63,028 nucleotides of DNA from a virus (taxonomy: Duplodnaviria; Caudoviricetes), in the IMG/VR virus record IMGVR_UViG_3300035188_000849, positions 1-63,028 of that record, one strand, 5' to 3'. The translations under genes were made by a program, and so were the position numbers. The stretch's first letter is position 1; every line of letters begins with the position of its first letter. The notes under the pieces are model-generated. The model made no database searches, was not told the origin of the DNA, and was given only the letters and a program-made list of their open reading frames with translations. Below are positions 19,803 through 61,160 of this stretch, piece by piece.

Positions 19803-21338
19803 TTAACCATATTCTCGTCTATAGTTTGGAAGCATAAAGGAGTCTTCGGCAGTCTTCTTATAAATGTCATATTGATATGCAATGTTCGTGACATTTACAG
19901 TAGAACCACCTGTCTGTAAAACAACATTTGCTTTTTTATCTTGATCATCTTTTTTCTGAGAAGCACCGAAAAGAGATTGCATCAAAGCAAATCCCGGACT
20001 CATCATGGCCGCTGCTCCTAATCCTGCACCAAGACCAGAAGCAACACCACCTATAGCAGAACCAATTCCTTGAAGAGCACCACCGACAACACTGCCCACA
20101 CCACTACCACTTTCTGGTTTTTGTGATTCAATTGTTGATTGTGCGTCTTCACCAATGTCATCTGTTGCTTCTTTTCTCTGAAGACCACCAGAGGATTGTT
20201 GCATTGCAGAGAATTGTGCAGATGACTGTTTTTGTTTTTCTAGTTCCGCACCCAAGTCTTTTGATTCTTCTTTTGTTGCTGCTTTGACGGAGGCACCAGA
20301 GGAACCAGAGACAGAGGACATCAATCCCTGAACTTTACCCACTTGTTTTTCTACTTCTTCTTTAACGACTTCTGTGCCTTCTCTCATTGCTGCTTTTGCT
20401 GCTTTTAATCCCGTTTTTGCTAAACCACCCAAGCCTTTAGCGATTCCACCTGCGGCTTTCATTCCGGCTTTTGCTACTTTAGCAACTTTGGCAGCACCAG
20501 TAACCACTCCCAAGAAATGTGCTGGAGTTTCAATTTGAATTGCTCCTGTTTCATTAATCGATGGTTTATTTTGAAGTTGTCCTGATTGAACCATATTAAT
20601 AAGACTCATTTTATCGTGTCTTGCCAAAAGAACAGAACTCTGTTGATTTAATCCGTCTGTTGCCAAAATTTTTAATCCAGATTCTTTTTGCTTTGGTTCT
20701 TGTTGTTTTAATCTTTGCATCATTTCAACTGGTATTACAGAACCAGTATCTTGGTCAATTATTTCTTTTCCTGCCTCCCCAACCAAAGCCGCTTCTTTCT
20801 TACCGGGTTTATCTGTATTGAGAAACACTATTTTTGGTGGTTCGTTTCCACCAGCAGTAGTTGCATTTGGTTCTAATTTTGCTTTTATTTGTTCTATGTT
20901 TTTTCTGGTTGGGACTAGACTGTTAGAAAAATCAGATTTTACACCAATTTTTCCAGACTTATACGCAGGAATTGATAACAAATTATTGTTGAATTTATCC
21001 GTTTTTATTTTATTTGTAAGTGTTCCAATTTTGAATACAGATAGTAATTGTTTTTCTTCATTTTTTGGAAGAAGAACTGAGTAATTTGTTTCAATTTTTG
21101 CAAAATTTGGTTTCTTTGGAGAAGTATTAGTGTTTGTTTCCACTAAAACTTGTTTTAATTCTGGGGAATCTTCCATAGATTCTTCTGGTTTTATTAATTT
21201 TGGTAAAACTTCTATGGTTTTTTGATAAATTTTTTCAACAATAGGAGAAACTTTATTTAATTTCAAAAAAGGCAAAACTTTTTTCTTAAGTTCTTGCGTC
21301 AAGAATTTTTTAATTTGAGTTTTTTGTGCCTTTTTCAT
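19803..21338 (-). CDS. probable tail-length/tape-measure-like protein (gp29 position)
   Basis: Ala/Gly/Lys-rich helical repeats (GGIAKGLGGLAK, GSAIGGVASGLGAG); directly after gp26/gp51. Confidence 0.45.
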   Translation of the reverse strand: MKKAQKTQIKKFLTQELKKKVLPFLKLNKVSPIVEKIYQKTIEVLPKLIKPEESMEDSPELKQVLVETNTNTSPKKPNFAKIETNYSVLLPKNEEKQLLSVFKIGTLTNKIKTDKFNNNLLSIPAYKSGKIGVKSDFSNSLVPTRKNIEQIKAKLEPNATTAGGNEPPKIVFLNTDKPGKKEAALVGEAGKEIIDQDTGSVIPVEMMQRLKQQEPKQKESGLKILATDGLNQQSSVLLARHDKMSLINMVQSGQLQNKPSINETGAIQIETPAHFLGVVTGAAKVAKVAKAGMKAAGGIAKGLGGLAKTGLKAAKAAMREGTEVVKEEVEKQVGKVQGLMSSVSGSSGASVKAATKEESKDLGAELEKQKQSSAQFSAMQQSSGGLQRKEATDDIGEDAQSTIESQKPESGSGVGSVVGGALQGIGSAIGGVASGLGAGLGAAAMMSPGFALMQSLFGASQKKDDQDKKANVVLQTGGSTVNVTNIAYQYDIYKKTAEDSFMLPNYRREYG

Positions 21339-21344
21339 TTATGT

Positions 21345-21530
21345 TTACGCTTGTTTTAGTTTTTCGTTCATTTCTTCTATGTGTTTTCTCATCATTTCTA
21401 CAAAAAGTGTTCTCTCCCACGGTATCATTCTTTCAATTTGATCAATTGGTACTTTATGTTCAAAGAATATTTGAAAATTTATCTTTAGAACTTCTACTAA
21501 ATTTGCATAACCAAAAATAATTCTAAAAAA
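21345..21530 (-). CDS. gp51: gp51-like baseplate hub assembly module, predicted -1 frameshift extension of gp26
   Basis: Reads FFRIIFGYANLVEVLKINFQIFFEHKVPIDQIERMIPWERTLFVEMMRKHIEEMNEKLKQA*; MIPWER motif; no ATG/GTG/TTG before MIPWER. Confidence 0.8.
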   Translation of the reverse strand, partial: FFRIIFGYANLVEVLKINFQIFFEHKVPIDQIERMIPWERTLFVEMMRKHIEEMNEKLKQA

Positions 21531-22234
21531 TCGGAAAATCCTCGTATTGTAATGTCTCTTTTTACACCATCTTTTGTGGTGTATTCTATTTTTTGCTCAA
21601 TTGTGGGTATTTCTTTCAAAAAGTTTAGCAAATTTTTAAATTGTTTTGCTGTAAGTGTTTCCAAAAACTGTATAACTTCTTCATGAGGCACGTCTTTTGT
21701 ATAATATTGTTCTTCTCCGGACTGAATTTCTTCTATACACAGAGATAAAAGTTCTAAAACACCAGTTTCGTCTTCTTGGATATTGAATTTATTAAGTTTT
21801 AGATACACATCAAGAGTCGGTTGTGCTAAAACTACAGAAATTGAAGAATCTAATGCTATTTTGTTCTTAGGTTTCTTGTTTGTGACTTTAGTATTTCTTA
21901 AATCTACAAATGATTGTACTTTTTCGTTAGTAACTGGACATGTAATATAACATTCCACTACTTCACCAACAGATTTTTCTCTTATTTTCAAAAATAAGTA
22001 TTCTAAATCACAAAATGGCAAATTTTTACAGTCGTTGTCTGGTAAACCAGTAACACACGAATTTATAACCTCTTGTATGGTTGTCATCAAGTTGTCGAAT
22101 GAAGAAGTTTCTTTTGCTATCAATAGATTCTTCTCTTCCCTGACAACAAATGGTCTATAAGTTACTCTTTTTTGTGTAATTGGCAAAATTTCAGTATACT
22201 TTGGTGTTTTTTCTATTAACAGTTCTTTTAGCAT
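21497..22234 (-). CDS. gp26: baseplate hub subunit/chaperone gp26
   Basis: YRPFVVREEKNLL, DLEYLFLKIREKSVGE, CP; AATAAATA at 22263-22256. Confidence 0.92.
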   Translation of the reverse strand: MLKELLIEKTPKYTEILPITQKRVTYRPFVVREEKNLLIAKETSSFDNLMTTIQEVINSCVTGLPDNDCKNLPFCDLEYLFLKIREKSVGEVVECYITCPVTNEKVQSFVDLRNTKVTNKKPKNKIALDSSISVVLAQPTLDVYLKLNKFNIQEDETGVLELLSLCIEEIQSGEEQYYTKDVPHEEVIQFLETLTAKQFKNLLNFLKEIPTIEQKIEYTTKDGVKRDITIRGFSDFLELFLVMQI

Positions 22235-22271: not shown

Positions 22272-22841
22272 TTAAGATTGTCCCGGTAAATATTGATAAC
22301 TGGTATAGAAAATATTTACGCTAAATCTGACAACTGAATTCATTTCTATTGCATCAAACTTGGCTGGCAATATTTCTAGGGGAATACATTCTTTTAATAA
22401 TATTGTGTAATTTATTTCGTTGGTTTGTGACAATGCTTCTATTTTTATATCTCTTTTTATGTCATCAAAATAACCAACTCTATTGACTAACGTTCCTCCG
22501 GTTCCTAAACCAGATAATCCATTTGCATCTATTGTTGCGATAGTTTGCCAGTCTTCGAAGTATTTTCTGCTATTCCAGTTTCCTTCGATTGCAAAATCAA
22601 ACAAATTATTATTGTATTCTATGCCATATATTGCTGGTATTGGTGACATGGCACCGGACAGAAAATCACCATATGCTTTAAGTTTCTTAGATGGTATTTG
22701 TGCTAAAGGACAAAGAAATACCTGTTGACTTCCATTTGGTGGGATTATAATCACTCTATATCTACTAGAAGTCTGTACTCCATTGTTTTGTTTTAAATAT
22801 TCAAATAAACCACCCGGATTTCCGGGAAATAGGGATGACAT
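22272..22841 (-). CDS. tail tube-like protein (gp19/gp54 family)
   Basis: SRYRVII, RKYFEDWQ, VGYFDD, FSVNIFY tube-fold motifs. Confidence 0.7.
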   Translation of the reverse strand: MSSLFPGNPGGLFEYLKQNNGVQTSSRYRVIIIPPNGSQQVFLCPLAQIPSKKLKAYGDFLSGAMSPIPAIYGIEYNNNLFDFAIEGNWNSRKYFEDWQTIATIDANGLSGLGTGGTLVNRVGYFDDIKRDIKIEALSQTNEINYTILLKECIPLEILPAKFDAIEMNSVVRFSVNIFYTSYQYLPGQS

Positions 22842-23282
22842 TTAATTTTTTCCTCTGAAAAGATTATTTTCGGTTAAAACCATGAATTTCCATCCGTTTT
22901 TTGAGCAAAATTTAGATGCAGAGTCCCACTTAGATTTATTTATCTGATATTGAACCATCTCTGTTAAAAATGTTCTATTACTCTTCTCGCCACGCTTTGG
23001 TTCTTTTGTCTGTTTATCTGGTTTTATTTCTACAACTATTGTTTCTATTTCATTTTGTTTTTTAACTTCAAAAAGAAAATCAGGATAATACATGTGAACT
23101 TTATTATCTACTGGAGAAACATAAGGAATCTGTAGTTCTTCGCTAGACCATCTAATTACATTAGAATTTTCGTCCAAATATTTACAGAAGGTTCTTTCCC
23201 AAAGAGACCTACATATAATGTTGTCGGGGTTGCCGACGTACTTTTGTGGATTTTTTGGTTTATATTTACTCTTGTAGGCCAT
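22842..23282 (-). CDS. gp4: head completion nuclease gp4
   Basis: MAYKSKYKPKNPQKY, RSLWE, WSSEE, YYPDF, VEIKP. Confidence 0.93.
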   Translation of the reverse strand: MAYKSKYKPKNPQKYVGNPDNIICRSLWERTFCKYLDENSNVIRWSSEELQIPYVSPVDNKVHMYYPDFLFEVKKQNEIETIVVEIKPDKQTKEPKRGEKSNRTFLTEMVQYQINKSKWDSASKFCSKNGWKFMVLTENNLFRGKN

Positions 23283-24990: not shown

Positions 24991-27900
24991 ATGCCTGATC
25001 AAACAAGTGAAATAACACAAGAATTTATTAATCTAAAAATTCACGAAATAAAGATTATTGGAAAAGATAATCAAGTTTATGAAATTTATCCAAAAAGTCC
25101 AAACTTTGGTTATCAGTCAATGACAATAACCGAAGGTATGTTCGAGGCTTCTTTGCATGGTACTCTTTCTTTAAGAGATATAAATTCTACACCTGAGCAA
25201 ATTAATTTTTCTGCATTTGATGATATCGTCATCAAGATGGAAAATCCAGAAATACCAAATTCATTTAAATCTCTTAGATTTAAGATTTATAATGTAAAGG
25301 CATATGGAGATCAAATTAAAGAAAATTTGATAAAAGAAGAATCAAACATTCCCAAAATAGAGTTAAAAGTTGATTTTGTTTCTTATGAACATTATCTACT
25401 TACATATAAAGAATTTTCAGAATTGGCTGGTTTAACTGGTGCGGATATTATCACAAAAATTTCCACAAGTAGTCTTGGTTCTTCCCAACAAGTTGGTTTA
25501 GTTAATAGCATTAATGACAGGTTTTTTAAAACAGGAAAGACCAATTCTGACACCACACAAAAACCAATGTACATCGAAGAGTCGAGAAATTGGGTTTGGT
25601 ATAAACAAAACCAATCAATGTATCCTTGGGGTAAACTTAATAGACCACTTAAAGCGGCTCAACTTTTGCAATTTTTGGCAGAATATGCTGTTTCCGATTC
25701 TAATCCTAATGCATGTAACTTTATGTTTTGGCAGGATATGGATCGATGGAATTTTAGAAGTATAGAGTCTTTATTAAGAGAACCAGTCGTTAGACAGTAT
25801 TTTGTTTCAAACATACCAACACAAGTAGGAAACATTTATAGCCTTAAAATTGTAAATGAATCTAATTTTTTAAGACTATTTGAATCAAATGCATTTGCTG
25901 CCAAATATTACTTGGTTGAACCAAAGTGGAATCAACCATATAGAGAATACCTTGATTATAATGAATCACATTCCATAACAGAAGTAGTTTACAATTATTT
26001 TAGAGATTATAATAAATGGTTAAAGGTAGAAAAATATCCACTGCTTCCTTCTGGAATAACAACCGAACCAACAGCAGCAAATGTAATAAACGACAATGTT
26101 TCTGGTTACTTCTCCAAGTCTTTTAACAATAGAGATAAAACTGTTGCATGGGATCATCATGGTTATACCTTTTCTAATAGAGAGGGAACAATTACATGGC
26201 AACCAATGTTTGATCAGGTAGATCTTGATGGAGAAGTTTGCAGAAAAATCCAAAAAGACATTAAGCAAAAATTAAAAGATAAAAGAATAGAATATGCCAA
26301 TAAGAAAAATCTAAAAGAAAAATGGAAAGTATATAAGTGTAGTATCTGTTGTGATTCTTCTTCATTAGAACCAGAAGGAACAGAAGTTTTTAGTTCGGAG
26401 TATGGTATTGTTGCCGCTGGTGCCTTTACTGACTTGGTAAACTACAATAAGTCTGAAGGTTTTAGTGGATCTAGGCAATTCCCAATTGGTTTGACATTTA
26501 GTTATGATTTGTCGCAGGAACCATTCAATAAGACCATTGGAAACTTGATGTATCTTCGTGAAGTTCCAGACATACAAACAAAATATTTGTATGATTTAGA
26601 ACTAAAGAGAATTGATATTGCTAGAGAACGATTAGAAAAACAAATTCAATACCTAGAATCTGCCAAACAAAATGCATTAGAAAAACCAGTATGTGAAGAG
26701 GATGAAAACACACAACCTTGGGAATATTGTGATAATGCAAATAGTGCATTAAATCCATTAGTAAGTTGCTTCTGCACTCAAGAGAAAAAAGATGAGTACA
26801 TAGAAATTTACTATAATGCCCCAATTAGAAATAGACAAGAACTATTGGCATCTGATTATTTTACAAAAATGAAAGATATTATTGAAGAAGAAAAAACAAA
26901 CTTCTCGACAATATATGAACAATATAAAGGAAGAACTGCCTTCTTTGTTTCAAGTGAATTAGGATTTACCGCAGATAATTCCGAGCAAAATCTTTTTAAT
27001 GTCAAATCAATAACTAGAATTCCAATTAGGGGCAGTAAATACGAGAAACTGGCAAAAAAGAGAGTTTTAGAGGAATTTGTAAAAAACTCTGGTGTTACTT
27101 TTACATTTAAGGGTTTTTCTCCGGGGACAACTTCATATTATCCATATGAAATTTTTTACAATAATGATTCATCAATTGATCCGTCTGTAAAACATCCCCA
27201 CTACGATTCTGGTTATAATTTTGATATAGGATTTGGTGCAAATCCACATTTTTCAGTTTTTGATGAAATCGGAGGACCAAACTCTGGATCTCCTCTGGGA
27301 AATGATCCATATCTTTCTTTATTGTATTATGTTTCTATTAGGGCAAAAATAGTTAGTAAGTTTGTTGAAAAAACTGCCATTTTAATTAATGAAAATAATG
27401 GGTGCGATTCATCGAATCTTAAAATTGGTGGTTATTCTTCTGAATCAACAGACTTTTTTAACTACACATACGTTGATTCAAATCCTGCAAAATTAAGTCA
27501 ACCTGAAATAGTTAAAAGAATTTTAAAAGAAAGAATAACAGGGGAATTATTATCCTATGATATAGAGTATACTAACAATGGAGCAATATTAAAAAGAATT
27601 TCTCCAGAAGTTTGTAACAGACCAAACGAAAAAACTATAGAAATAACAATAGAATATGATGAAGTATATTCTAATAATCTAGGAAATTCTTACTTAACAC
27701 AATTTGATTCATCAAATCCAACCGCAATATGTGTACATACTCCGTTTGGGTTAGAACGGTTGGACTTTGATCCAATTGAATATCTAAATTCTAGAAATTT
27801 GATCGATCTGCGTGAACCAGAAGAGGGAGAGGAACCAAAAAGACCGATTGAGAAAATTTTGGAAGAAATAGAAAGTTTTGTTCGTATTGAGTTCCAAACC

Positions 27901-29658
27901 CCAATTGGAGTAAATACTGTTTATGATTTTCCAAAAGGATTTTACGATACCCCCGGTTCAGAATATTATTTACCATATCATGTTTTCCTAAATGCCGGTC
28001 CTTTTGGTGCAAAGTCTGTAGATTACAACATCTCAGTATTGGGACAAGATCCTTATGGTTTTGATGTTGCAGTAAAAAGAATAAACAAAAAGAAACACGA
28101 ATTAAAGCCAGAAAATAAAGCATTAGTTAATAATAAAGATTATCATATTGTTGAAAATGGATACTACAAAAATACTTCTTTAAATTTGTTCACCAATTGG
28201 CAACAGCAACCAATAACTTATGGTTTTTCTCCTACAATTTCTTATAATTCTGTTCCAAACCCATATAACTATTATTCCAAAAAATCCGACACTTATTTAA
28301 ATTTTGGTTTAAACAAACTAGACTCGGATGAACACAGAATTAGACAAACTGATTTCACTTATGGTGATTATATTGGAACTAATTTGTCTGAAATCTTTTA
28401 CCACGATTTGCTAAGTAGTATTACTAGAAAAAATCCTTTATCTTTACCTAATTCTTACTTTGAATTTAGTAATTCGAGATTAGATGGAACTGCCATATCT
28501 GCAAATTCAAGATGGAGACAAACAGTTAGTCTACCAGATTTTGGAGAGGGTGACTATACAAAACAAAATGAAAGCTTTGGCAGAACTAATGGAAGTGATG
28601 AAATCTATGAGAATAAACAAATTCAAATAACAAATGATAAATTGTTGTCAGATATTTTATTGCCAGGAAACGTCTTTGGTTATTACCAACCGCAAGAAAA
28701 TTCTCCACTACCAATATCTACAGATTATTTTAAATCATTTGCATCATATAATCCATCAGAAAACGGAAAAACTGGTTGGCTTTCTTTCTTTGAATTAGAT
28801 CTAAGAAACAGAAACATAAGAGAAGACAAAGATACACCAGAGCAAGAAACAACTTTCTATGGTAATTATTACGGTGTTGCAATTTGGAGTCACCCTCAAA
28901 TACCACAAGAAATGTCTCATGTTTGGAAAAATGATATTTCTGGAGAAACTGAGTATGGACTAGTAGGTCCAGAATTAGAACCAGAGGACTCCACATTTGA
29001 CAGAAACTTTGCTGCTCAATTTATGGTGATATCTAGACAAACACCAGAAAACAATCCATGTAAAGACTATCCTTGTTCCAACCCAGAGCCGGTTGATAAT
29101 TCTACTTGCCCAGATAATGATCCTATCTGCAATTGTCCTTGTCAGGAACTCAGACCTGACAAAATGACAGTTGGTTTTACTGGGCCAGAACCAACATATG
29201 CCGAACTTAGACAATTAGAACAAGAGATAAAAGAATGTGATCTAATCGAGAATGTCTTAGGGGAAGACTGGTTAGGTTGTGTTTGGGGTAAACCCAACGA
29301 TCTATTGAATTGTGATTGTCCATGTATTGGCACAAAGTTCTTGGATTATTTGAAGTATTCTCAAACATATTGCACATTCTGGCAAACACCACCAGAAAGA
29401 CCTCTTCTTCGTAATGCACAAATGATGCAAATCAACGCTAATAAAATAGTGATATCCCTGAATGGTGATTTTACCCTAAGACCAGGAACAAAAATAAGTC
29501 TAAATTTAGGAACAAAGAGATATTCGGGAACTTGGCTGGTTCAAAGCATAGTCCATGATATTGCAAAGACAAAACATTACATGGATGTGGTATTGATTCG
29601 AGACACAGAATATCTAAATCCAAACACAAGATCAGAAAAATTGGTACTAAATAACTAA
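24991..29658 (+). CDS. giant baseplate hub-like protein (gp27/gpD-type termini with large insertion)
   Basis: N-terminal ITEGMFEASLHGTLSLRD, FMFWQD...NFRSIESL; C-terminal NGDFTLRPG...YSGTWLVQSIVH...LIRD. Confidence 0.6.
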   Translation: MPDQTSEITQEFINLKIHEIKIIGKDNQVYEIYPKSPNFGYQSMTITEGMFEASLHGTLSLRDINSTPEQINFSAFDDIVIKMENPEIPNSFKSLRFKIYNVKAYGDQIKENLIKEESNIPKIELKVDFVSYEHYLLTYKEFSELAGLTGADIITKISTSSLGSSQQVGLVNSINDRFFKTGKTNSDTTQKPMYIEESRNWVWYKQNQSMYPWGKLNRPLKAAQLLQFLAEYAVSDSNPNACNFMFWQDMDRWNFRSIESLLREPVVRQYFVSNIPTQVGNIYSLKIVNESNFLRLFESNAFAAKYYLVEPKWNQPYREYLDYNESHSITEVVYNYFRDYNKWLKVEKYPLLPSGITTEPTAANVINDNVSGYFSKSFNNRDKTVAWDHHGYTFSNREGTITWQPMFDQVDLDGEVCRKIQKDIKQKLKDKRIEYANKKNLKEKWKVYKCSICCDSSSLEPEGTEVFSSEYGIVAAGAFTDLVNYNKSEGFSGSRQFPIGLTFSYDLSQEPFNKTIGNLMYLREVPDIQTKYLYDLELKRIDIARERLEKQIQYLESAKQNALEKPVCEEDENTQPWEYCDNANSALNPLVSCFCTQEKKDEYIEIYYNAPIRNRQELLASDYFTKMKDIIEEEKTNFSTIYEQYKGRTAFFVSSELGFTADNSEQNLFNVKSITRIPIRGSKYEKLAKKRVLEEFVKNSGVTFTFKGFSPGTTSYYPYEIFYNNDSSIDPSVKHPHYDSGYNFDIGFGANPHFSVFDEIGGPNSGSPLGNDPYLSLLYYVSIRAKIVSKFVEKTAILINENNGCDSSNLKIGGYSSESTDFFNYTYVDSNPAKLSQPEIVKRILKERITGELLSYDIEYTNNGAILKRISPEVCNRPNEKTIEITIEYDEVYSNNLGNSYLTQFDSSNPTAICVHTPFGLERLDFDPIEYLNSRNLIDLREPEEGEEPKRPIEKILEEIESFVRIEFQTPIGVNTVYDFPKGFYDTPGSEYYLPYHVFLNAGPFGAKSVDYNISVLGQDPYGFDVAVKRINKKKHELKPENKALVNNKDYHIVENGYYKNTSLNLFTNWQQQPITYGFSPTISYNSVPNPYNYYSKKSDTYLNFGLNKLDSDEHRIRQTDFTYGDYIGTNLSEIFYHDLLSSITRKNPLSLPNSYFEFSNSRLDGTAISANSRWRQTVSLPDFGEGDYTKQNESFGRTNGSDEIYENKQIQITNDKLLSDILLPGNVFGYYQPQENSPLPISTDYFKSFASYNPSENGKTGWLSFFELDLRNRNIREDKDTPEQETTFYGNYYGVAIWSHPQIPQEMSHVWKNDISGETEYGLVGPELEPEDSTFDRNFAAQFMVISRQTPENNPCKDYPCSNPEPVDNSTCPDNDPICNCPCQELRPDKMTVGFTGPEPTYAELRQLEQEIKECDLIENVLGEDWLGCVWGKPNDLLNCDCPCIGTKFLDYLKYSQTYCTFWQTPPERPLLRNAQMMQINANKIVISLNGDFTLRPGTKISLNLGTKRYSGTWLVQSIVHDIAKTKHYMDVVLIRDTEYLNPNTRSEKLVLNN

Positions 29659-35616: not shown

Positions 35617-37623
35617 ATGTCAGACTATCCCGGTATAACAACACTTAATTTAGGCAATACCTTTGGTGCTTGGTATAACAAGACAAATGAATTAATAACC
35701 AGAACCAATACACTTCAGGTTGGAAGTATAACAGCCGGTGATGGTTTAATTGTGTCAAAACACCCAAGTATAGCCGGCGGTTATACTCTGTCAATATCAA
35801 ATACTATCAACAAAAATGTGACTTTTTTGGGAGATGTTGATATTCAAGGCACATTGAGTTATGCCTATGGCGGAGAAGCAACAATATCTGCCATTGCGCT
35901 TTCTGTTCCAATAGATTCGGGTATTACAGTTGGAAACATAGTTTATATTGACTCTGACGGAATAGCACAGAAAGCAATTGCAAACGATGAATGCTCTGCC
36001 GAAGTATTGGGAATAGTAGTAGGATTTACTGGCTCTAATGCACAGGTTGCAGTTTCTGGAAAAATATCTGGATCTTCCACCATTGCAAATTTCCTAGGAA
36101 TTACTGGTGGAACTTTACAAAAAGGAACAGTATATTTCTTGAGTTCCGGTATATCTGGAGCAGGAACTACTTTACAACCAAATGCAATAGAGAACGTTTC
36201 AAAACCAGTCTTATTAGGAATAACATCAGATGTTGGAATAATTCTTCCATATAGAGGATTCAAGGGAGTTACTTCAAGTGGTAGTTTCACTAGTTATGGT
36301 GGTTTATGTGGGGGTTATTCTGGACCAATAGTAACAAGCATCAATTCTGCAAATTCATACCGCAGTTCTTCACAAAGAGATTATGAACAGGGAATATCAA
36401 GAACTTCTGGAGATGTACTCGGAATAAATTCGATCACTTATTTTTACGATGGAGGAGAAGGTACTGTTACTATCGATAGTTATGGGCTATTATTTGACAG
36501 GATAAACTATGTGATTCCTTGGGGTGGATTTGCAAATTACATTTCTAATCCTCTTAATTCTGGTAAGCGTGGATGGAGGCAGTCTCAAACAACTTCTGCT
36601 GGAGTTAAAGAAATTGAGTTAGAAGTACCAAAAACAAATATTAAAAGATATAATTTGTTTTCAACTTCTGGAATTACCACAGATGTTTGGAGATTGAAAA
36701 ACATTAAAGTTCATGTGGAAGAGACACCACTAAGGTCTTTTTCATTTTCATTAATTAGAGTTATAAATCGTTTAGGAAACACAAATTATTCATTTAATAC
36801 TAATTCAGACACTTCTGGAGTTGAAGAGGCACCCGGAAAACTCGGAATTAGATTTGGTATTCAAGAAATATCTGGAATAAATGCTAGAGTTTCCGTGAAT
36901 GGTAGTGCAAATTCGATTACCTCTTTAACTATTTTAGAACCAAAAACTATTTTGCCATTTAAAGTTTTCTTTGATGGTGTTACCTATTCTGGTGATGGTT
37001 CTACCGCCGGAGATCTAAGAATTACTCCAAACTGGTCAACATTTAGTGGTGCTATAACAACTAATGATGGTCGCATTTTATACGGTCAACAAAATCCAAC
37101 GCCAGGAAATGGTAAATATCCAATAATATATGGAGCAGAAAATCTCTCTTTGAGCAATCTCGATGATGTAGTTTCTACACTTTCTAACAGAAATTATACA
37201 TGGATCATTAATAGTCACATAGTAGGAAATACTGGAGATCAAAAATTAGTATCAGAAATAATAAAAAGTTCAGTAGAGGGAAATTCGATAGATTTTGATG
37301 GAACTTTGAGTGGAATTACTATGGATACAGCAATTTTAGGATGGAATGCAACTTATGGAGCAGTATCAGAAGGATTATACATTCATTTATATGATTCAGA
37401 AATAACCAAACCAATTGCTGGTATTGGAACAATAGATGGAACTGAACACCAGAAAACTGGAACAATTTATTTGGAAATGACAAAATTAGATATTAATACT
37501 CTAACAGAGTCTGGACCGGTAATAATTCCAGTAAGATTTGAAAGAGATTTACATTATATTAAAAATTCTGGTAAAGATATCACCACAGATAATAGAAGAT
37601 TCCCACCCGGAACAGAACTATGA
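35617..37623 (+). CDS. tail fibre/baseplate-associated structural protein
   Basis: N-terminal TFGAWYNKTNEL; KAIAN...AEVLGIV module. Confidence 0.6.
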   Translation: MSDYPGITTLNLGNTFGAWYNKTNELITRTNTLQVGSITAGDGLIVSKHPSIAGGYTLSISNTINKNVTFLGDVDIQGTLSYAYGGEATISAIALSVPIDSGITVGNIVYIDSDGIAQKAIANDECSAEVLGIVVGFTGSNAQVAVSGKISGSSTIANFLGITGGTLQKGTVYFLSSGISGAGTTLQPNAIENVSKPVLLGITSDVGIILPYRGFKGVTSSGSFTSYGGLCGGYSGPIVTSINSANSYRSSSQRDYEQGISRTSGDVLGINSITYFYDGGEGTVTIDSYGLLFDRINYVIPWGGFANYISNPLNSGKRGWRQSQTTSAGVKEIELEVPKTNIKRYNLFSTSGITTDVWRLKNIKVHVEETPLRSFSFSLIRVINRLGNTNYSFNTNSDTSGVEEAPGKLGIRFGIQEISGINARVSVNGSANSITSLTILEPKTILPFKVFFDGVTYSGDGSTAGDLRITPNWSTFSGAITTNDGRILYGQQNPTPGNGKYPIIYGAENLSLSNLDDVVSTLSNRNYTWIINSHIVGNTGDQKLVSEIIKSSVEGNSIDFDGTLSGITMDTAILGWNATYGAVSEGLYIHLYDSEITKPIAGIGTIDGTEHQKTGTIYLEMTKLDINTLTESGPVIIPVRFERDLHYIKNSGKDITTDNRRFPPGTEL

Positions 37624-57404: not shown

Positions 57405-58556
57405 ATGGCAACAAGACCTAATGTACAAGTATCTGTAGTAGACAATTCATTCGTCATAGTAGGCGCAGAGGGAGCAAGCACACACGTTTCCGGTATGTTT
57501 AGCCTAACCACACCCTCGCTAGTTGATATATTCGGAACCACCGCAGAAAACGATCAAGGATACATGACAGTCACCTCTTTGGGTGACTGGGTAACTAGAC
57601 TCAATGGTACAACTTATGGTGGAGTAACCGGACAAGGACCAACTGGTGGTTGGAAAACAGATTGGTATTCTGCATATAATTACTTGACATATGGTGGTGC
57701 TCTAAACATAGCAGAATCAGCAACTACATTCTTTGATACCTCTATTCTTCTAGATTCTGTCTTCACATCAACTCTAACTCAATCACAAGCAACAGCAGTC
57801 GAAAACACTGTCTCGGATAGAGCAGATTTAGTTGGAATTATTGGTGTAACTTACGCAGGATATACCGCCGGTGGCACCGTACCATCGGGTGTAACTTCCT
57901 CATTCACCCTAGCAGCAGATTCGAATATCTTTGCTGTTGGTGGAGAAAAAGTTATGTTGGGTCTTTCAAATAGCACAGTTGGCGAAAACTTTGTAACCAT
58001 TCCACTCGCTTCTGATGCCGCTGGTTGCTTTGCTAGAACGGATAGAGATGCAAATGCTTGGTTCTCACCAGCAGGAACCCGCCGAGGTAGAATTCTTAAC
58101 ACAGTTCGTTTGATAAAAAATCCAAAGAACCTAGAACAAGATTACCTTTATACAGCCAAAATTAACTCTGTAATTGGAGTACCGGGTGAGGGAACATTCT
58201 TGTTTGGTGACATAACTCAAGAAGGAACTGCTTCTTCTTCTCTAACTAGAGTTAATGTAGTTAGACTCATCAATTATATCAAGAAGGTTTTAGGAAATAC
58301 TGCAAGAACAGTTCTATTCGAAGTAAATGATTCTGCAACTCGTTCGTTGTTTGGAAATGCTGCAAACGGATTCCTTCAAACCATCAAAGAAGGAAGAGGT
58401 TTGTTTAACTACAGAGTAGTTTGTGATGAAACAAACAATCCAGCAAATATCATAGACGCAAATCAATTTGTTGCCGATATTTACATTCAACCAACCAAGT
58501 CCATCAATTACGTTAAAATTACTATAACTAATCTAAATACTAGCGTACAACTATAA
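57405..58556 (+). CDS. gp18: tail sheath protein gp18 (short form)
   Basis: WFSPAGTRRG, LFGD, RVNVVRL, FEVND, VVCDETNN, IQPTKSINY; AATAAATA at 57367. Confidence 0.9.
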   Translation: MATRPNVQVSVVDNSFVIVGAEGASTHVSGMFSLTTPSLVDIFGTTAENDQGYMTVTSLGDWVTRLNGTTYGGVTGQGPTGGWKTDWYSAYNYLTYGGALNIAESATTFFDTSILLDSVFTSTLTQSQATAVENTVSDRADLVGIIGVTYAGYTAGGTVPSGVTSSFTLAADSNIFAVGGEKVMLGLSNSTVGENFVTIPLASDAAGCFARTDRDANAWFSPAGTRRGRILNTVRLIKNPKNLEQDYLYTAKINSVIGVPGEGTFLFGDITQEGTASSSLTRVNVVRLINYIKKVLGNTARTVLFEVNDSATRSLFGNAANGFLQTIKEGRGLFNYRVVCDETNNPANIIDANQFVADIYIQPTKSINYVKITITNLNTSVQL

Positions 58557-58583: not shown

Positions 58584-59129
58584 ATGAGTATTCATTCAAT
58601 CTCAACATTTACTAGTAATTTTAACGGAGGAACAAGACCAAACCGTTTTAGAATTACTGGTTCAATTCCAGGCCTTGGAAACGCACAAGCATTTCATGAA
58701 ACAGGTATTTACTGCTTGGCATCAACAATGCCCGAAAGCACAGTTGGTATAATTCCAATTCCATTTCGCGGAAGAATTTACAAATTTCCAGGCGATAGGC
58801 AATATTCTGAATGGAATGCAACACTCTTAGATGATACAGGAAATAATGCAACTTGGCAACTTTGGCACGAATGGTCACAAAGATTTAATAGTCACGAAGA
58901 CAACATTGCAGCAGATAGAACTCATATTTCAGAGTTCTGTGCTGATCTAACCATTGAACAACTAGATCACCAATCTGATGCAGTTATTAAATCTACTCAA
59001 TTAGTCAATGCTTGGCCTGTTGTGGTTGGACCAATTGCATTTGACATGGGTTCAGCAAATACACTAACACAATTCCAAGTAACTGTTGCATATAGTCACT
59101 ACACAAGTCCAACCGTAAGAAATCCGTAA
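58584..59129 (+). CDS. gp19: tail tube protein gp19
   Basis: GGTRPNRF, IPFRGR..KFPGDR, NAWP. Confidence 0.93.
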   Translation: MSIHSISTFTSNFNGGTRPNRFRITGSIPGLGNAQAFHETGIYCLASTMPESTVGIIPIPFRGRIYKFPGDRQYSEWNATLLDDTGNNATWQLWHEWSQRFNSHEDNIAADRTHISEFCADLTIEQLDHQSDAVIKSTQLVNAWPVVVGPIAFDMGSANTLTQFQVTVAYSHYTSPTVRNP

Positions 59130-59151: not shown

Positions 59152-60723
59152 ATGGCATTACCTGATATATTTGGGTTTAGTTTTGGTAAAAAGAAGGAGC
59201 AGGAACCTAATCTAGAATCAACTCAGATTCCAGTAACACCTGAGCCTTACGACGGAACTTATACATTTGAAACTGGAGGAGTCTTTGGTACATCCATTGA
59301 CTTCTCCGGTTCTATTAGGGACGAGAATCAATTAATAAACCAATATAGGGGAATGGCACTACATCCAGAGGTAGATGCCGCTGTAGAGGATATAGTTAAT
59401 GAATCTATTGTTTCTGGTGAAGACAGAAAACCAATCAAACTAAATTTGGATTATGTCAATCTACCAGATACAATTAAGACAAAACTATATTTTGAATACA
59501 ATCAAATATTAAAACTTTTAGACTTTACAAACAAATCACACGAAATTTTTAGAAGATGGTATATCGATAGCAAAATTTATTATTATAAGGAAATAGATAA
59601 ACAAAATCCACAAAAAGGATTGGTTTCTTTAATTCCTATTGATCCAGTAAAGATCAAAAAAGTAAGAAAGATTGAAAAAGAAAGATCAAGAGTAGCAAAT
59701 GGTCAAATTATACCATTTGTAAAAAAGATCGAAGAGTATTATGTTTATACAGACACCGACAAGGAAGCATTATATCCAACTACACCATCTGGGTATAAAT
59801 TTAGTGTAGATTCAATTTCTTACTGTCATTCTGGAATTGTTGATGCTGTAACAAAACGAGTAGTTGGATATTTGCAAAAAGCAATTCGTCCATTGAACAT
59901 GTTACGGCAAATTGAAGATGCGGTTGTAATCTATAGAATATCTCGCGCACCTGAACGTAGAATTTTCTATGTCGATGTTGGTAACTTACCAAAACAAAAA
60001 GCCGAGCAATATCTTAGAGAGATAATGAATCGGTATCGCAACAAATTAACTTATGATTCTGCTACCGGACAAATAAGAGATGACAGAAACCATCTTCATA
60101 TGTTAGAAGATTTCTGGATGCCTAGAAGAGAAGGTGGTCGTGGTACTGAAATTACCACTCTAGATGGTGGTCAAAACTTGGGAGAAATGGAAGACGTTCT
60201 ATATCTCCAAAAGAAACTCTATAGAGCACTAAACGTTCCTATCTCTCGTCTTGAATCTGAAACAGGATTCAATATGGGTAGATCAGCAGAAATAACAAGA
60301 GATGAAGTTAAGTTCTATAAGTTTATAGAAAGACTTCGTTTGAAATTTGCATCTCTGCTAACAGATCTTCTAAAAACACAAGTTATTCTCAAGGGAATAA
60401 TGACTGAGGAAGAATGGAATAAAGTTCAACAAGATATTGCATTTAAATTCAACAAAGATTCATATTTTAACGAACTAAAAGAAAACGACATACTTCGTGA
60501 CCGCTTAGAGATGCTAAATAATCTGTCGGTGTTTGTTGGAAGATATTACTCAGATGAATTCATCCGAAAGAATGTCTTAAAGCAAACAGACGAAGAGATT
60601 ATTGAAATTAACGGTCAGATTGCTAAAGAACAGCAAGAAGCCTTAATCAAAACTGTGGAACAACAACAACAGATGTTGGCTTTGGGAATTCAACCACAAC
60701 CAGAAGAAGGCGAACAACAATAA
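59152..60723 (+). CDS. gp20: portal protein gp20
   Basis: IYRISRAPERRIFYVDVGNLPK, EDFWMPRREGGRGTEITTL. Confidence 0.97.
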   Translation: MALPDIFGFSFGKKKEQEPNLESTQIPVTPEPYDGTYTFETGGVFGTSIDFSGSIRDENQLINQYRGMALHPEVDAAVEDIVNESIVSGEDRKPIKLNLDYVNLPDTIKTKLYFEYNQILKLLDFTNKSHEIFRRWYIDSKIYYYKEIDKQNPQKGLVSLIPIDPVKIKKVRKIEKERSRVANGQIIPFVKKIEEYYVYTDTDKEALYPTTPSGYKFSVDSISYCHSGIVDAVTKRVVGYLQKAIRPLNMLRQIEDAVVIYRISRAPERRIFYVDVGNLPKQKAEQYLREIMNRYRNKLTYDSATGQIRDDRNHLHMLEDFWMPRREGGRGTEITTLDGGQNLGEMEDVLYLQKKLYRALNVPISRLESETGFNMGRSAEITRDEVKFYKFIERLRLKFASLLTDLLKTQVILKGIMTEEEWNKVQQDIAFKFNKDSYFNELKENDILRDRLEMLNNLSVFVGRYYSDEFIRKNVLKQTDEEIIEINGQIAKEQQEALIKTVEQQQQMLALGIQPQPEEGEQQ

Positions 60724-61160
60724 TGACTCTTAGACCAGAATTCACTGCGCTTATCTCAGAAGACAAAGAAGCATTCAAAACCGAATTGACTTCTTTGATT
60801 CAAGTTAAGTTAACTGAAAAGATGGGTGAATTATACGTTAAAGAATGTGCATTGCTGTTCGAAAAGACTAAAGTTTTACCAAAGAAAAAAGAAGAAAAAG
60901 TAGAAATCCAAGAAAACACCGCAGTTGTTTATATGCCAATTGACGAGATCAATAACGCTATAAACACCAACAGAACTAACTGGATGGTTGCTAAGGATGG
61001 TTCTCAACTTGAAGTAACCCCACAAATGGCAAAATATTTGGCAGAACTTTACAAAACTCTAAATAATTCACATAAGGACAAGTTAGTAAACCTCATTCTT
61101 GAATCCGATCATGGATTTAAGAAAGCAGTAAAAACTGCGGAAAAGTTATACCGGAGATAA
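60723..61160 (+). CDS. probable prohead core protein
   Basis: Between gp20 and gp21 where T4 has gp67/gp68. Confidence 0.55.
   Translation: MTLRPEFTALISEDKEAFKTELTSLIQVKLTEKMGELYVKECALLFEKTKVLPKKKEEKVEIQENTAVVYMPIDEINNAINTNRTNWMVAKDGSQLEVTPQMAKYLAELYKTLNNSHKDKLVNLILESDHGFKKAVKTAEKLYRR

What the first reader, a model, noticed from the sequence alone, without database searches (positions are those of the whole stretch)
21345..22234. Predicted programmed -1 frameshift fusing gp26 to gp51, like the lambda G/GT tail chaperones
Seen (minus strand): gp26 ends ...GAT TTT TTA GAA..., containing the heptamer U-UUU-UUA (plus 21524-21530) 8 codons before its stop. The -1 frame continues 59 codons as a gp51-like sequence with MIPWER. 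Between the previous in-frame TGA and MIPWER there is no ATG, GTG or TTG, so the first half of the domain has no start of its own. Gene order is tube-like gene, gp26, gp51, tape-measure-like gene. Known: U-UUU-UUA is a canonical -1 slippery site, and G/GT frameshifting between tube and tape-measure genes is conserved in many tailed phages but is not classically described for T4. Inference: gp26 and a roughly 296-aa gp26-gp51 fusion are the T4-like equivalents of G and GT.
Basis: partly seen in the sequence, partly recalled or inferred. Interest (0 to 1): 0.85.

Follow-up and report, generated by a model that had tools for sequence, protein, structure and literature searches.

The report
Frameshifted gp26-gp51 tail chaperone gene
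This lake-water T4-like phage most likely makes a short and a long tail-assembly chaperone from one gene by slipping back one base at a run of six T's, an arrangement shared by many T4-like phages and already described in print in 2022.

Summary
On the minus strand, gp26 (22234..21497, 245 aa) carries an in-frame T TTT TTA at 21530..21524. The -1 frame then runs 59 codons (21524..21348) as the C-terminal module of gp51. It has no ATG/GTG/TTG before the M of MIPWER.

All 110 loci with this layout that I examined carry an in-frame T TTT TT(C/T/A) at the same place. These are the window, 100 metagenomic relatives and 9 named phages. The base before the run is always T, although its codon encodes Ser, Asp, Ala or Asn. 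Nine of 9 Straboviridae that have a separate full-length gp51 gene lack the heptamer.

T4 gp51 aligns collinearly across the junction of the predicted fusion, and T4 gp26 ends at the junction. gp26 and gp51 are therefore the short and long forms of one chaperone.

Two papers cite Vladimirov, Gautam and Davidson (Virology 2022) for exactly this: T4-like tail chaperones with poly-T slip sites, and some phages carrying separate short and long genes. I could not read that paper itself.

Public records I inspected still annotate gp51 as a tiny separate ORF or not at all. Verdict: a real feature and a new member of a known kind.

The parts
21497..22234 (-). gp26 = short tail/hub assembly chaperone (TAC-N), 245 aa, zero frame
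   Evidence: ORF. PF12322 T4_baseplate 163.8 bits against a cut-off of 24.5, E 6e-48. phrog_150 E 5.5e-48. AF2 model pLDDT 87.8.
21524..21530 (-). slippery heptamer T TTT TTA (zero-frame codons D235-F236-L237)
   Evidence: Sequence. Invariant in 20 of 20 close relatives. T TTT TT(C/T/A) in 80 of 80 distant relatives and in 9 of 9 named phages with this layout. Positions 0-5 are T in 89 of 89 unique contexts.
21345..21524 (-). -1 frame extension: 59 codons (21524..21348) plus stop TAA (21347..21345); C-terminal module of gp51 (TAC-NC specific part)
   Evidence: Translation. phrog_634 'baseplate hub assembly catalyst' E 1.2e-13, and phrog_150 positions 230-280 of 282. Conserved from its first codon in 36 aligned relatives. 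Collinear with T4 gp51 residues ~195-245.
21539..21543 (-). Shine-Dalgarno-like GAGGA, 8 nt upstream of the heptamer; candidate stimulator (inferred)
   Evidence: Sequence. At the homologous Glu codon relatives use GAG 54 times and GAA 15 times, against 603 and 1541 elsewhere in the same genes (odds ratio 9.2). The two G's of the following Gly codon are invariant.
22272..22841 (-). tube-like paralogue immediately upstream (not the main tube gene, which is at 58584..59129)
   Evidence: phrog_45 tail tube E 2.4e-10; the main tube gives phrog_45 E 1.3e-34. The same neighbour is annotated as a tail tube gene in phiM19, RHph_I1_18, DSL-LC03 and phiAS5.
19803..21338 (-). 511-aa ORF starting 7 nt after the extension's stop; candidate tape measure/hub protein (not established)
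   Evidence: No Pfam or PHROG family. Weak local similarity to T4 gp29 (30% over 84 aa, E 0.009 for one comparison). Atlas model pLDDT 0.38; nearest named clusters are tape-measure families at 0.81-0.82, below the tool's bar.

Best explanation
One gene makes two proteins.

Most ribosomes read gp26 to its stop and make the 245-aa short chaperone. A minority slip back one base on U UUU UUA. The P-site tRNA-Phe re-pairs from UUU to UUU and the A-site tRNA-Leu from UUA to UUU. Those ribosomes continue for 59 codons and make a 296-aa long form, whose extra C-terminal module is what databases call cyanophage 'gp51'.

The pair corresponds to T4 gp26 (short) and T4 gp51 (long), which T4 and its close kin encode as two separate paralogous genes. 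It is the T4-like version of the lambda G/GT tail assembly chaperones. The shared N-terminal part presumably holds the tape-measure/hub protein, and the rare C-module presumably docks another tail or hub component.

Shown here: the sequence architecture, its conservation, the nucleotide-level constraint, and the collinearity with T4 gp51. Inferred: that slippage is ribosomal, its efficiency, stimulation by the upstream GAGG-like element, and all binding partners.
For: 1. Architecture: an in-frame heptamer, a 59-codon -1 ORF, and no start codon before codon 33 of it.

2. Homology: gp26 matches PF12322 and phrog_150. The -1 ORF matches phrog_634 (E 1.2e-13) and the C-terminal end of phrog_150.

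3. T4 as a natural in-frame fusion.
- T4 gp51 matches phrog_150 at positions 13-280 of 282 (E 2.6e-84), and T4 gp26 at 14-235 (E 6.7e-71).
- A profile of 84 unique predicted fusions aligns T4 gp51 without a break across the junction (profile 24-283 of 299, E 9e-13).
- The same profile aligns T4 gp26 up to the junction only (profile 11-239, residues 4-207 of 208).

4. Conservation.
- In-frame T TTT TTN is present in 20 of 20 close relatives and 80 of 80 distant ones at 31-38% identity.
- It is present in 9 of 9 named phages with this layout: S-PM2, S-WAM2, DSL-LC03, DLP6, phiM19, Melnitz-1, RHph_I1_18, Desulfovibrio phage 7757 and phiAS5.
- In 11 of 11 GenBank records listed in both tblastn tables, the gp26 match ends on the same base where the gp51-module match begins, allowing for the query offset.

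5. Nucleotide-level constraint.
- The base before the run is T in 89 of 89 unique contexts, although its codon is AGT, GAT, TCT, GCT or AAT. The background T share for these codons is 65%.
- The first Phe codon is always TTT (background 71%).
- Neighbouring third positions carry only 0.13-0.25 bits.

6. Coding signal in the -1 frame starts right at the heptamer. Second codon positions +10, +16 and +22 are invariant, and the first residues R-I-x-L-x-H are conserved.

7. Natural control: 9 of 9 Straboviridae with a divergent full-length gp51 gene have no in-frame heptamer at the gp26 end. In T4, FF is written TTC TTT. Straboviridae phage phiAS5, which has the small downstream gp51, has T TTT TTC.

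8. The site is not an assembly error.

9. Fold: the top three of 48,161 chains are the HK97 tail assembly chaperone 2ob9 (Z 6.9, rmsd 4.1, 84 aligned), 3klu (Z 6.5) and 3fgx (Z 6.4). All three fall on model residues 1-98, and the next hit is at Z 5.0.
Against: - No protein or RNA data: no run on record as RNA holds the stretch, so neither the fusion product nor the mechanism is observed.
- No stimulatory RNA structure. The 84 nt downstream in the window fold no better than shuffles (z -0.16), and RNAalifold finds no consensus pair in 85 relatives. A subset does fold better than mononucleotide shuffles (23 of 85 with z below -2).
- In 60 of 95 complete loci an ATG, GTG or TTG lies within 8 codons after the junction, so independent initiation cannot be excluded there.
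- The fold matches are under the tool's trust bar of Z 8, and Foldseek against the PDB found nothing.
- The counts and P values ignore shared ancestry among the loci.
- A T6 run could also allow RNA polymerase slippage.
Confidence: 0.78

Rival explanations
1. Transcriptional slippage. RNA polymerase stutters on the T run and adds one U to a fraction of the mRNAs. Ordinary translation of those transcripts then gives the gp26-gp51 fusion. The products are the same; only the step differs.
For: The conserved element is a homopolymer run, 6 T in 89 of 101 loci and 7-9 T in 12. No conserved downstream RNA structure was found. The title of Vladimirov et al. [quoted passage not shown]
Against: From general knowledge rather than any call here: efficient slippage by bacterial RNA polymerase usually needs runs of about 8-9 or more, and most loci have exactly 6. 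The run always sits in the X XXY YYZ phase, but shared descent could explain that. An SD-like element at a dnaX-like distance is enriched at the nucleotide level, which makes sense only for a ribosomal event.
Confidence: 0.12
2. No recoding. The gp51 module is a separate small protein of about 27-60 aa, translated from its own start or by re-initiation after the gp26 stop, as most GenBank records annotate it.
For: Seven of the 9 named records inspected annotate a separate small 'gp51 / hub assembly catalyst' CDS or none at all; the ninth has no annotation. None of the eight annotated records carries a joined CDS. A canonical start lies within 8 codons after the junction in 60 of 95 loci.
Against: In 34 of 95 loci there is no ATG, GTG or TTG from the upstream -1 stop to 8 codons past the junction. 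In the window the first one is codon 33, which would leave a 27-aa peptide lacking the conserved R-I-x-L-x-H...Y-Y-x-x-N-F part. This model does not explain the invariant heptamer, the T at the X position, or the loss of both in phages with a full-length gp51. Sullivan et al. 2010 (passages) noted that cyanophage gp51 lacks the first ~200 aa of other gp51 proteins. The fusion supplies exactly that part.
Confidence: 0.07
3. Artefact or decay: a sequencing or assembly indel in a homopolymer, or a recently broken long gene.
For: Homopolymer runs are classic sites of sequencing error.
Against: Four independent public runs show no indel. All 110 of 110 loci share the same frame relation at protein identities as low as 27% to the window's gp26. 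None of 88 database homologues of 135-256 aa is an in-frame long form.
Confidence: 0.01

Closest known systems
T4-like tail assembly chaperones TAC-N / TAC-NC (T4 gp26 / gp51), as described by Vladimirov, Gautam and Davidson, Virology 2022;566:9-15. The paper is not held and is known here only through passages in citing papers.
   Same: The protein family is the same (PF12322, phrog_150, phrog_634). The logic of a short form and a long form is the same. [quoted passage not shown]
   Different: T4 and the 8 other Straboviridae sampled encode the long form as a separate, divergently transcribed full-length gene and lack the heptamer. The window uses the one-gene, -1 arrangement. The window's clade differs in two details from most cyanophage-type relatives: it uses T TTT TTA rather than T TTT TTC, and 8 zero-frame codons follow the site rather than 0-2.
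Phage lambda G / GT tail assembly chaperones (Levin et al. 1993 and Xu, Hendrix, Duda 2004, both recalled; their reference entries were seen)
   Same: [quoted passage not shown] The gene lies next to a tube-like gene and upstream of a large, poorly structured candidate tape-measure gene. The N-terminal fold finds solved TACs first.
   Different: No sequence similarity was detected: Pfam gives only PF12322. gp26 is about twice the size of classic TACs (2ob9 has 104 residues). The lambda heptamer is G GGA AAG (recalled), whereas here it is a U run. The neighbouring tube-like gene is a paralogue, not the main tube gene. Tape-measure identity is unproven.
E. coli dnaX -1 frameshift (A AAA AAG with an upstream Shine-Dalgarno-like stimulator and a downstream hairpin; Larsen et al. 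1994, recalled)
   Same: An SD-like GAGG(G/A) lies about 8-10 nt upstream of the heptamer, with a GAG codon preference at that site (odds ratio 9.2).
   Different: No conserved downstream hairpin was found. The heptamer is different. In dnaX the shifted product is the shorter one, whereas here it is the longer one.
Phage T7 gene 10A/10B -1 frameshift at G GUU UUC (recalled; named as a poly-T slip site in the passage)
   Same: It is a U-rich slip site decoded by tRNA-Phe in a phage structural gene, and it yields a minor C-terminally extended form.
   Different: The protein is unrelated (a capsid protein), and the T7 heptamer is not a full X XXY YYZ.

Membership tests
T4 gp26/gp51 hub (tail) assembly chaperone family (PF12322; phrog_150 / phrog_634) | Significant match of the short ORF to the family profile | tested here: met
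   PF12322 163.8 bits (cut-off 24.5), E 6.2e-48, profile 2-218 of 219. phrog_150 E 5.5e-48. BFVD fold matches to gp26-type proteins, E down to 1.8e-18, TM 0.84.
T4 gp26/gp51 hub (tail) assembly chaperone family (PF12322; phrog_150 / phrog_634) | The long form equals the short-form domain plus a C-terminal module collinear with T4 gp51 | tested here: met
   The -1 ORF matches phrog_634 (E 1.2e-13) and phrog_150 positions 230-280 of 282. The fusion profile aligns T4 gp51 residues 16-245 across the junction (E 9e-13) and T4 gp26 residues 4-207, ending at the junction.
Frameshifted tail assembly chaperone pair (lambda G/GT type) | [quoted passage not shown] | tested here: met
   110 of 110 loci with this layout. 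The X position and the first Phe codon are invariant in 89 of 89 unique contexts. The heptamer is absent in 9 of 9 two-gene phages.
Frameshifted tail assembly chaperone pair (lambda G/GT type) | Both products are actually made, the long one in a minor fixed ratio | not testable with these tools
   No RNA holder is listed and no protein data exist. This needs mass spectrometry, a western blot or a reporter assay.
Frameshifted tail assembly chaperone pair (lambda G/GT type) | Position between the tail tube gene and the tape measure gene | tested here: inconclusive
   The upstream gene is a tube-like paralogue (phrog_45, E 2.4e-10), but the main tube gene is 36 kb away. The downstream 511-aa ORF has no family and only weak tape-measure leads.
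Frameshifted tail assembly chaperone pair (lambda G/GT type) | TAC fold of the shared N-terminal domain | tested here: inconclusive
   VIA-align wide search: 2ob9 'HK97 tail assembly chaperone' Z 6.9, 3klu Z 6.5, 3fgx Z 6.4, all on model residues 1-98, with the next hit at Z 5.0. All are under the tool's bar of Z 8. That 3klu and 3fgx are TAC relatives is recalled (Pell et al. 2013), not given in their titles. Foldseek against the PDB gave no match at E 0.001 or better.
Frameshifted tail assembly chaperone pair (lambda G/GT type) | The short part binds the tape measure protein and the C-module binds the tube protein | not testable with these tools
   No experimental data exist. See Tried and rejected for the one modelling attempt.
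dnaX-type stimulated -1 frameshift | Upstream SD-like element about 10 nt 5' of the heptamer | tested here: met
   GAGGA lies at 21543..21539, 8 nt before the heptamer. In relatives the motif is GAG GGN with invariant GG, and GAG is preferred 54:15 against 603:1541 elsewhere in the genes. The motif is not clear in 3 of the 6 most divergent phages, by my reading. Function is untested.
dnaX-type stimulated -1 frameshift | Conserved downstream stem-loop | tested here: not met
   Window z -0.16. RNAalifold finds 0 consensus pairs in 85 sequences. Only a subset shows hairpins, and in differing registers.

The most novel reading that the evidence does not exclude
The shift may be driven by a minimal signal that has not, to my knowledge, been described for phage tail chaperones: a U6 run plus an internal Shine-Dalgarno-like GAGG about 8-10 nt upstream, as in dnaX, with no downstream RNA structure. 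This SD-like element would be under synonymous-site selection across T4-like phages of cyanobacteria, alphaproteobacteria, Methylophilales and lake bacteria. If so, host anti-SD pairing would set the ratio of short to long chaperone. Lineages that lost the signal, such as T4 and its close kin, would have had to duplicate the gene. I could not read the 2022 paper, so it may already cover this.
Probability: 0.3. Interest if true: 0.45.

Novelty: new member of a known kind. Interest (0 to 1): 0.3.

Why it matters
It settles what the tiny 'gp51' of cyanophages and other non-enteric T4-like phages is. Sullivan et al. 2010 (passages) noted that these gp51 proteins are only about 20% of the length of other gp51 proteins and lack the first ~200 residues. 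The small gp51 is the C-terminal module of a frameshifted long form of gp26.

It also links two T4 hub-assembly genes of long-uncertain role (review passages) to the general tail-chaperone scheme.

The practical gain is in annotation. None of the eight annotated GenBank/RefSeq records I inspected marks the slippage. They call a 40-60-aa ORF or nothing. The fixed motif NNT TTT TTN with a -1 continuation is an easy rule for annotating hundreds of Kyanoviridae-type genomes.

As a discovery it is not new, because the concept was published in 2022.

Tried and rejected
- **Complex modelling.** Complex prediction with the main tube protein (alignment A3) and the C-module (alignment A4) as partner returned 'no answer' (score 0.00 against a mark of 0.32, controls not folded). 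I draw nothing from it.
- **RNA evidence.** No RNA holder is listed for the stretch, so neither expression nor transcript slippage could be examined.
- **Downstream RNA stimulator.** The single-sequence fold and RNAalifold on 85 sequences gave nothing conserved. Per-sequence z-scores (mononucleotide shuffles only, 100 each) hint at hairpins in about a quarter of relatives, but in different registers. I did not pursue this.
- **In-frame long forms.** A word-index protein search with gp26 found 88 homologues of 135-256 aa and no long form. Only proteins of 134-429 aa were searched.
- **Foldseek against the PDB.** No match at E 0.001 or better.
- **The 511-aa ORF.** Pfam and PHROGs (also at E up to 10), BLASTP against T4 gp29, and the ESM Atlas gave no assignment.
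- **Direct comparison.** BLASTP of T4 gp51 against the window's pieces was insignificant. The relation shows only through profiles.
- **Nucleotide search.** A nucleotide search of the phage collection found only 3 short matches.
- **Literature.** Ten full-text searches were run, of which one failed on a too-short term. No held paper discusses gp26, gp51 and frameshifting together. Vladimirov et al. 2022 is not held, so what it shows, and whether it includes experiments, is known to me only from two citing passages.
- **Earlier notes of this scan.** None for this genome.
- **T4 gp26 relatives in viral contigs.** Only 7 close relatives were returned, so the negative control was built from 8 GenBank records plus one of those contigs.
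Full report
**What is there.**
On the minus strand, gp26 runs from 22234 to 21497 (245 aa). It matches Pfam PF12322 'T4 bacteriophage base plate protein' (163.8 bits against a cut-off of 24.5, E 6e-48) and phrog_150 'baseplate hub'. Codons 235-237 are GAT TTT TTA, so T TTT TTA sits in the X XXY YYZ phase at 21530..21524, eight sense codons before the TAG.

The -1 frame is open from 21596 to 21348. From the slip site it encodes 59 residues, RIIFGYANL...IERMIPWER...KLKQA, ending at TAA 21347-21345. Between the preceding -1 stop (TGA, 21599-21597) and the ATG of MIPWER there is no ATG, GTG or TTG (read).

This -1 ORF matches phrog_634 'baseplate hub assembly catalyst' (E 1.2e-13). It also matches the last 50 positions of the gp26 family profile phrog_150 (positions 230-280 of 282).

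**Chance and artefact.**
In 41 ORFs of the window (17,976 codons) there are 171 in-frame slippery-type heptamers, 12 of them T TTT TTN. Only three have a -1 frame open for 50 codons or more. One of the other two, at the end of the portal gene, simply reads into the next gene.

Contigs of four public lake or freshwater runs from four studies, none flagged as a possible source, cover the site with no inserted or deleted letters.

**T4 supplies the key.**
In T4, genes 26 (208 aa) and 51 (249 aa) are divergently transcribed neighbours. Both match the same family profile. gp26 covers phrog_150 positions 14-235 (E 6.7e-71). gp51 covers positions 13-280 (E 2.6e-84) and also matches phrog_634. So gp51 is a gp26-like protein with a C-terminal extension.

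I built the predicted -1 fusion products for the window and 94 complete related loci inside a script (84 unique sequences) and made a profile from them. T4 gp51 aligns to that profile in one piece across the junction (profile 24-283 of 299, residues 16-245, E 9e-13). T4 gp26 aligns up to the junction and ends there (profile 11-239, residues 4-207 of 208, E 3e-21). T4 gp51 is thus a natural in-frame version of the product that the window can only make by a -1 shift.

This also explains an observation by Sullivan et al. 2010 (passages read). They noted that cyanophage gp51 is only about 20% of the length of other gp51 proteins and lacks the first ~200 residues.

**Conservation.**
- Twenty of 20 metagenomic relatives at 67-98% identity keep GAT TTT TTA GAA TTA unchanged while the flanking codons vary synonymously.
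- Eighty of 80 relatives at 31-38% identity have T TTT TTC, T TTT TTT or T TTT TTA in frame. In 77 of them 0-2 sense codons follow the heptamer before the stop; the other three have 3, 4 and 9.
- In the 75 of these whose contig does not end too early, the -1 frame continues 54-69 codons past the gp26 stop.
- The exact tripeptide PWE is present in 63 of the 80. The others aligned have PFE or PYE.
- Nine of 9 named phages with the same layout also have the heptamer. They infect Synechococcus, Stenotrophomonas, Sinorhizobium, Rhizobium, Methylophilales, Desulfovibrio and Aeromonas.
- In 11 of 11 GenBank records that appear in both tblastn tables, the gp26 match ends on the base where the gp51-module match begins, allowing for the query offset.

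**Nucleotide-level constraint.**
Across 89 unique sequence contexts, the third base of the codon before the first Phe is always T. That codon is AGT, GAT, TCT, GCT or AAT, encoding four different amino acids. The same codon families end in T only 65% of the time elsewhere in these genes. The first Phe codon is always TTT, against a background of 71%. Neighbouring third positions are nearly random at 0.13-0.25 bits. These figures ignore shared ancestry and are descriptive only.

The -1 frame shows a coding pattern from its first codons. Second-position bases at +10, +16 and +22 are invariant, and R-I-x-L-x-H-x-x-L-x-x-Y-Y-x-x-N-F is conserved in 36 aligned sequences. This signal therefore begins upstream of any possible start in many loci.

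**A natural control.**
Nine of 9 Straboviridae have the T4 layout, with a full-length gp51 upstream on the other strand and gp25 downstream. They are T4, a Mosigvirus, a Jiaodavirus, a Dhakavirus, a Lazarusvirus, PSTCR6, a Krischvirus, AS4 and one IMG/VR contig. None has an in-frame heptamer at the gp26 end. T4 writes its FF as TTC TTT.

Straboviridae phage phiAS5 has the small downstream gp51 instead, and it has T TTT TTC. The run is therefore not needed for the protein. It is kept only where a -1 extension follows.

**Mechanism.**
The best reading is tandem -1 ribosomal slippage on U UUU UUA (U UUU UUC in most relatives).

I found no conserved downstream structure. The window's 84 nt fold like shuffles (z -0.16). 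RNAalifold finds no consensus pair in 85 sequences. A subset has local hairpins, with 23 of 85 at z below -2.

Upstream there is a Shine-Dalgarno-like GAGGA (21543..21539), 8 nt before the heptamer. In relatives it is GAG GGN with invariant GG. GAG is used 54 times against 15 GAA at that codon, whereas elsewhere in the genes the counts are 603 GAG and 1541 GAA (odds ratio 9.2). This resembles the upstream stimulator of the dnaX frameshift (recalled), but its function here is inference.

Transcriptional slippage on the T run is the main rival for the step at which the shift happens. The run is exactly 6 in 89 of 101 loci, which is short for polymerase slippage by general knowledge. No RNA data were available.

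Independent initiation of a small gp51, as most records annotate it, cannot be excluded in the 60 of 95 loci that have a start codon within 8 codons of the junction. However, 34 of 95 loci, including the window, have none. That model also leaves the heptamer unexplained.

**Function.**
The AF2 model of gp26 is confident (pLDDT 87.8, pTM 0.82). Foldseek finds gp26/gp51-type 'baseplate hub' proteins of many large myoviruses in BFVD (79 matches at E 0.001 or better) and nothing in the PDB.

An exhaustive structural alignment against 48,161 PDB representatives puts 'bacteriophage HK97 tail assembly chaperone' (2ob9, Z 6.9) first. It is followed by 3klu (Z 6.5) and 3fgx (Z 6.4), all on model residues 1-98, with the next hit at Z 5.0. 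I recall the latter two as prophage TAC relatives, which their titles do not state. These scores are below the tool's trust bar, so this is supportive rather than decisive.

The window is a T4-like structural module (35% GC). It encodes:
- gp32-like SSB;
- gp4-, gp48-, gp53-, gp25- and gp6-like proteins;
- neck proteins;
- terminase;
- sheath;
- the main tube gene at 58584..59129;
- portal;
- prohead protease.

The gene upstream of gp26 is a tube paralogue (phrog_45, E 2.4e-10). The 511-aa gene downstream has no family and only weak tape-measure leads. The G/GT-like synteny is therefore plausible but only half shown.

**Prior knowledge.**
Ten full-text searches, one of which failed on a too-short term, found no held paper that discusses gp26, gp51 and frameshifting together.

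- The PRFect paper (passage) says some T4-like phages carry one short gene and one longer fusion gene instead of frameshifting.
- A 2025 Viruses paper (passages) says poly-T sequences are known -1 signals in 'TAC-N genes of T4-like phages'.

The paper itself is not held, and I saw nothing of it. The concept is therefore published. Any of these may already be in the 2022 paper.

**Verdict.**
Interest is modest.

Noticed in passing
window 59152..61160 (+): The portal gene has an in-frame T TTG GGA 13 codons before its stop, and the -1 frame then stays open for 145 codons. This is the next ORF (60723..61160), which overlaps the portal stop. It is most likely an ordinary overlapping neighbour rather than recoding.
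   Followed up: no
window 35617..37623 (+): An in-frame A AAT TTC at codon 157 is followed by a -1 frame open for 53 codons, inside a 668-aa ORF with no family match. It was not examined further and may be chance.
   Followed up: no
GenBank/RefSeq records L001-L003, L106, L107, L109, L110, L125: None of these eight annotated records marks a joined or slippage CDS for gp26-gp51. Six call a separate 40-60-aa 'hub assembly catalyst', and two (DSL-LC03, S-WAM2) leave the extension unannotated.
   Followed up: partly
L027, L032, L034, L028, L026 (about 2-40 nt after the heptamer): Some cyanophage-type relatives have a predicted 8-11-bp hairpin starting a few bases after the slip site, but in different registers. 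No consensus structure exists across 85 sequences, and the window's clade has none.
   Followed up: partly
window 21506..21535: In two of the four runs laid (X12, X13), Logan contigs end and begin within this 30-base stretch around the heptamer, and one short contig runs on into unlike sequence. This may reflect strain micro-diversity or an assembly-graph branch at the low-complexity run. Runs X11 and X16 bridge it cleanly.
   Followed up: no
whole window: All 20 runs that hold the stretch are labelled lake-water or freshwater metagenomes. The nearest named relatives are marine cyanophages at only 27-37% gp26 identity. The window seems to belong to an uncultured freshwater T4-like lineage (35% GC) with a short 383-aa sheath protein (57405..58556) and a 1555-aa hub/tail protein (24991..29658).
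   Followed up: no
window 22842..23282 (-): The gp4-like head completion protein (phrog_218, E 1e-53) also matches Pfam TnsA-like endonuclease N-terminal domain (PF08722, E 3.9e-21).
   Followed up: no
L116 (IMG/VR contig, 58% identical to T4 gp26): Its gp26 ends GAG TTT TTT AAA. That is a run of six T in the wrong phase for X XXY YYZ, and the -1 frame stops at once. A T6 run alone therefore occurs in a two-gene phage without an extension.
   Followed up: no
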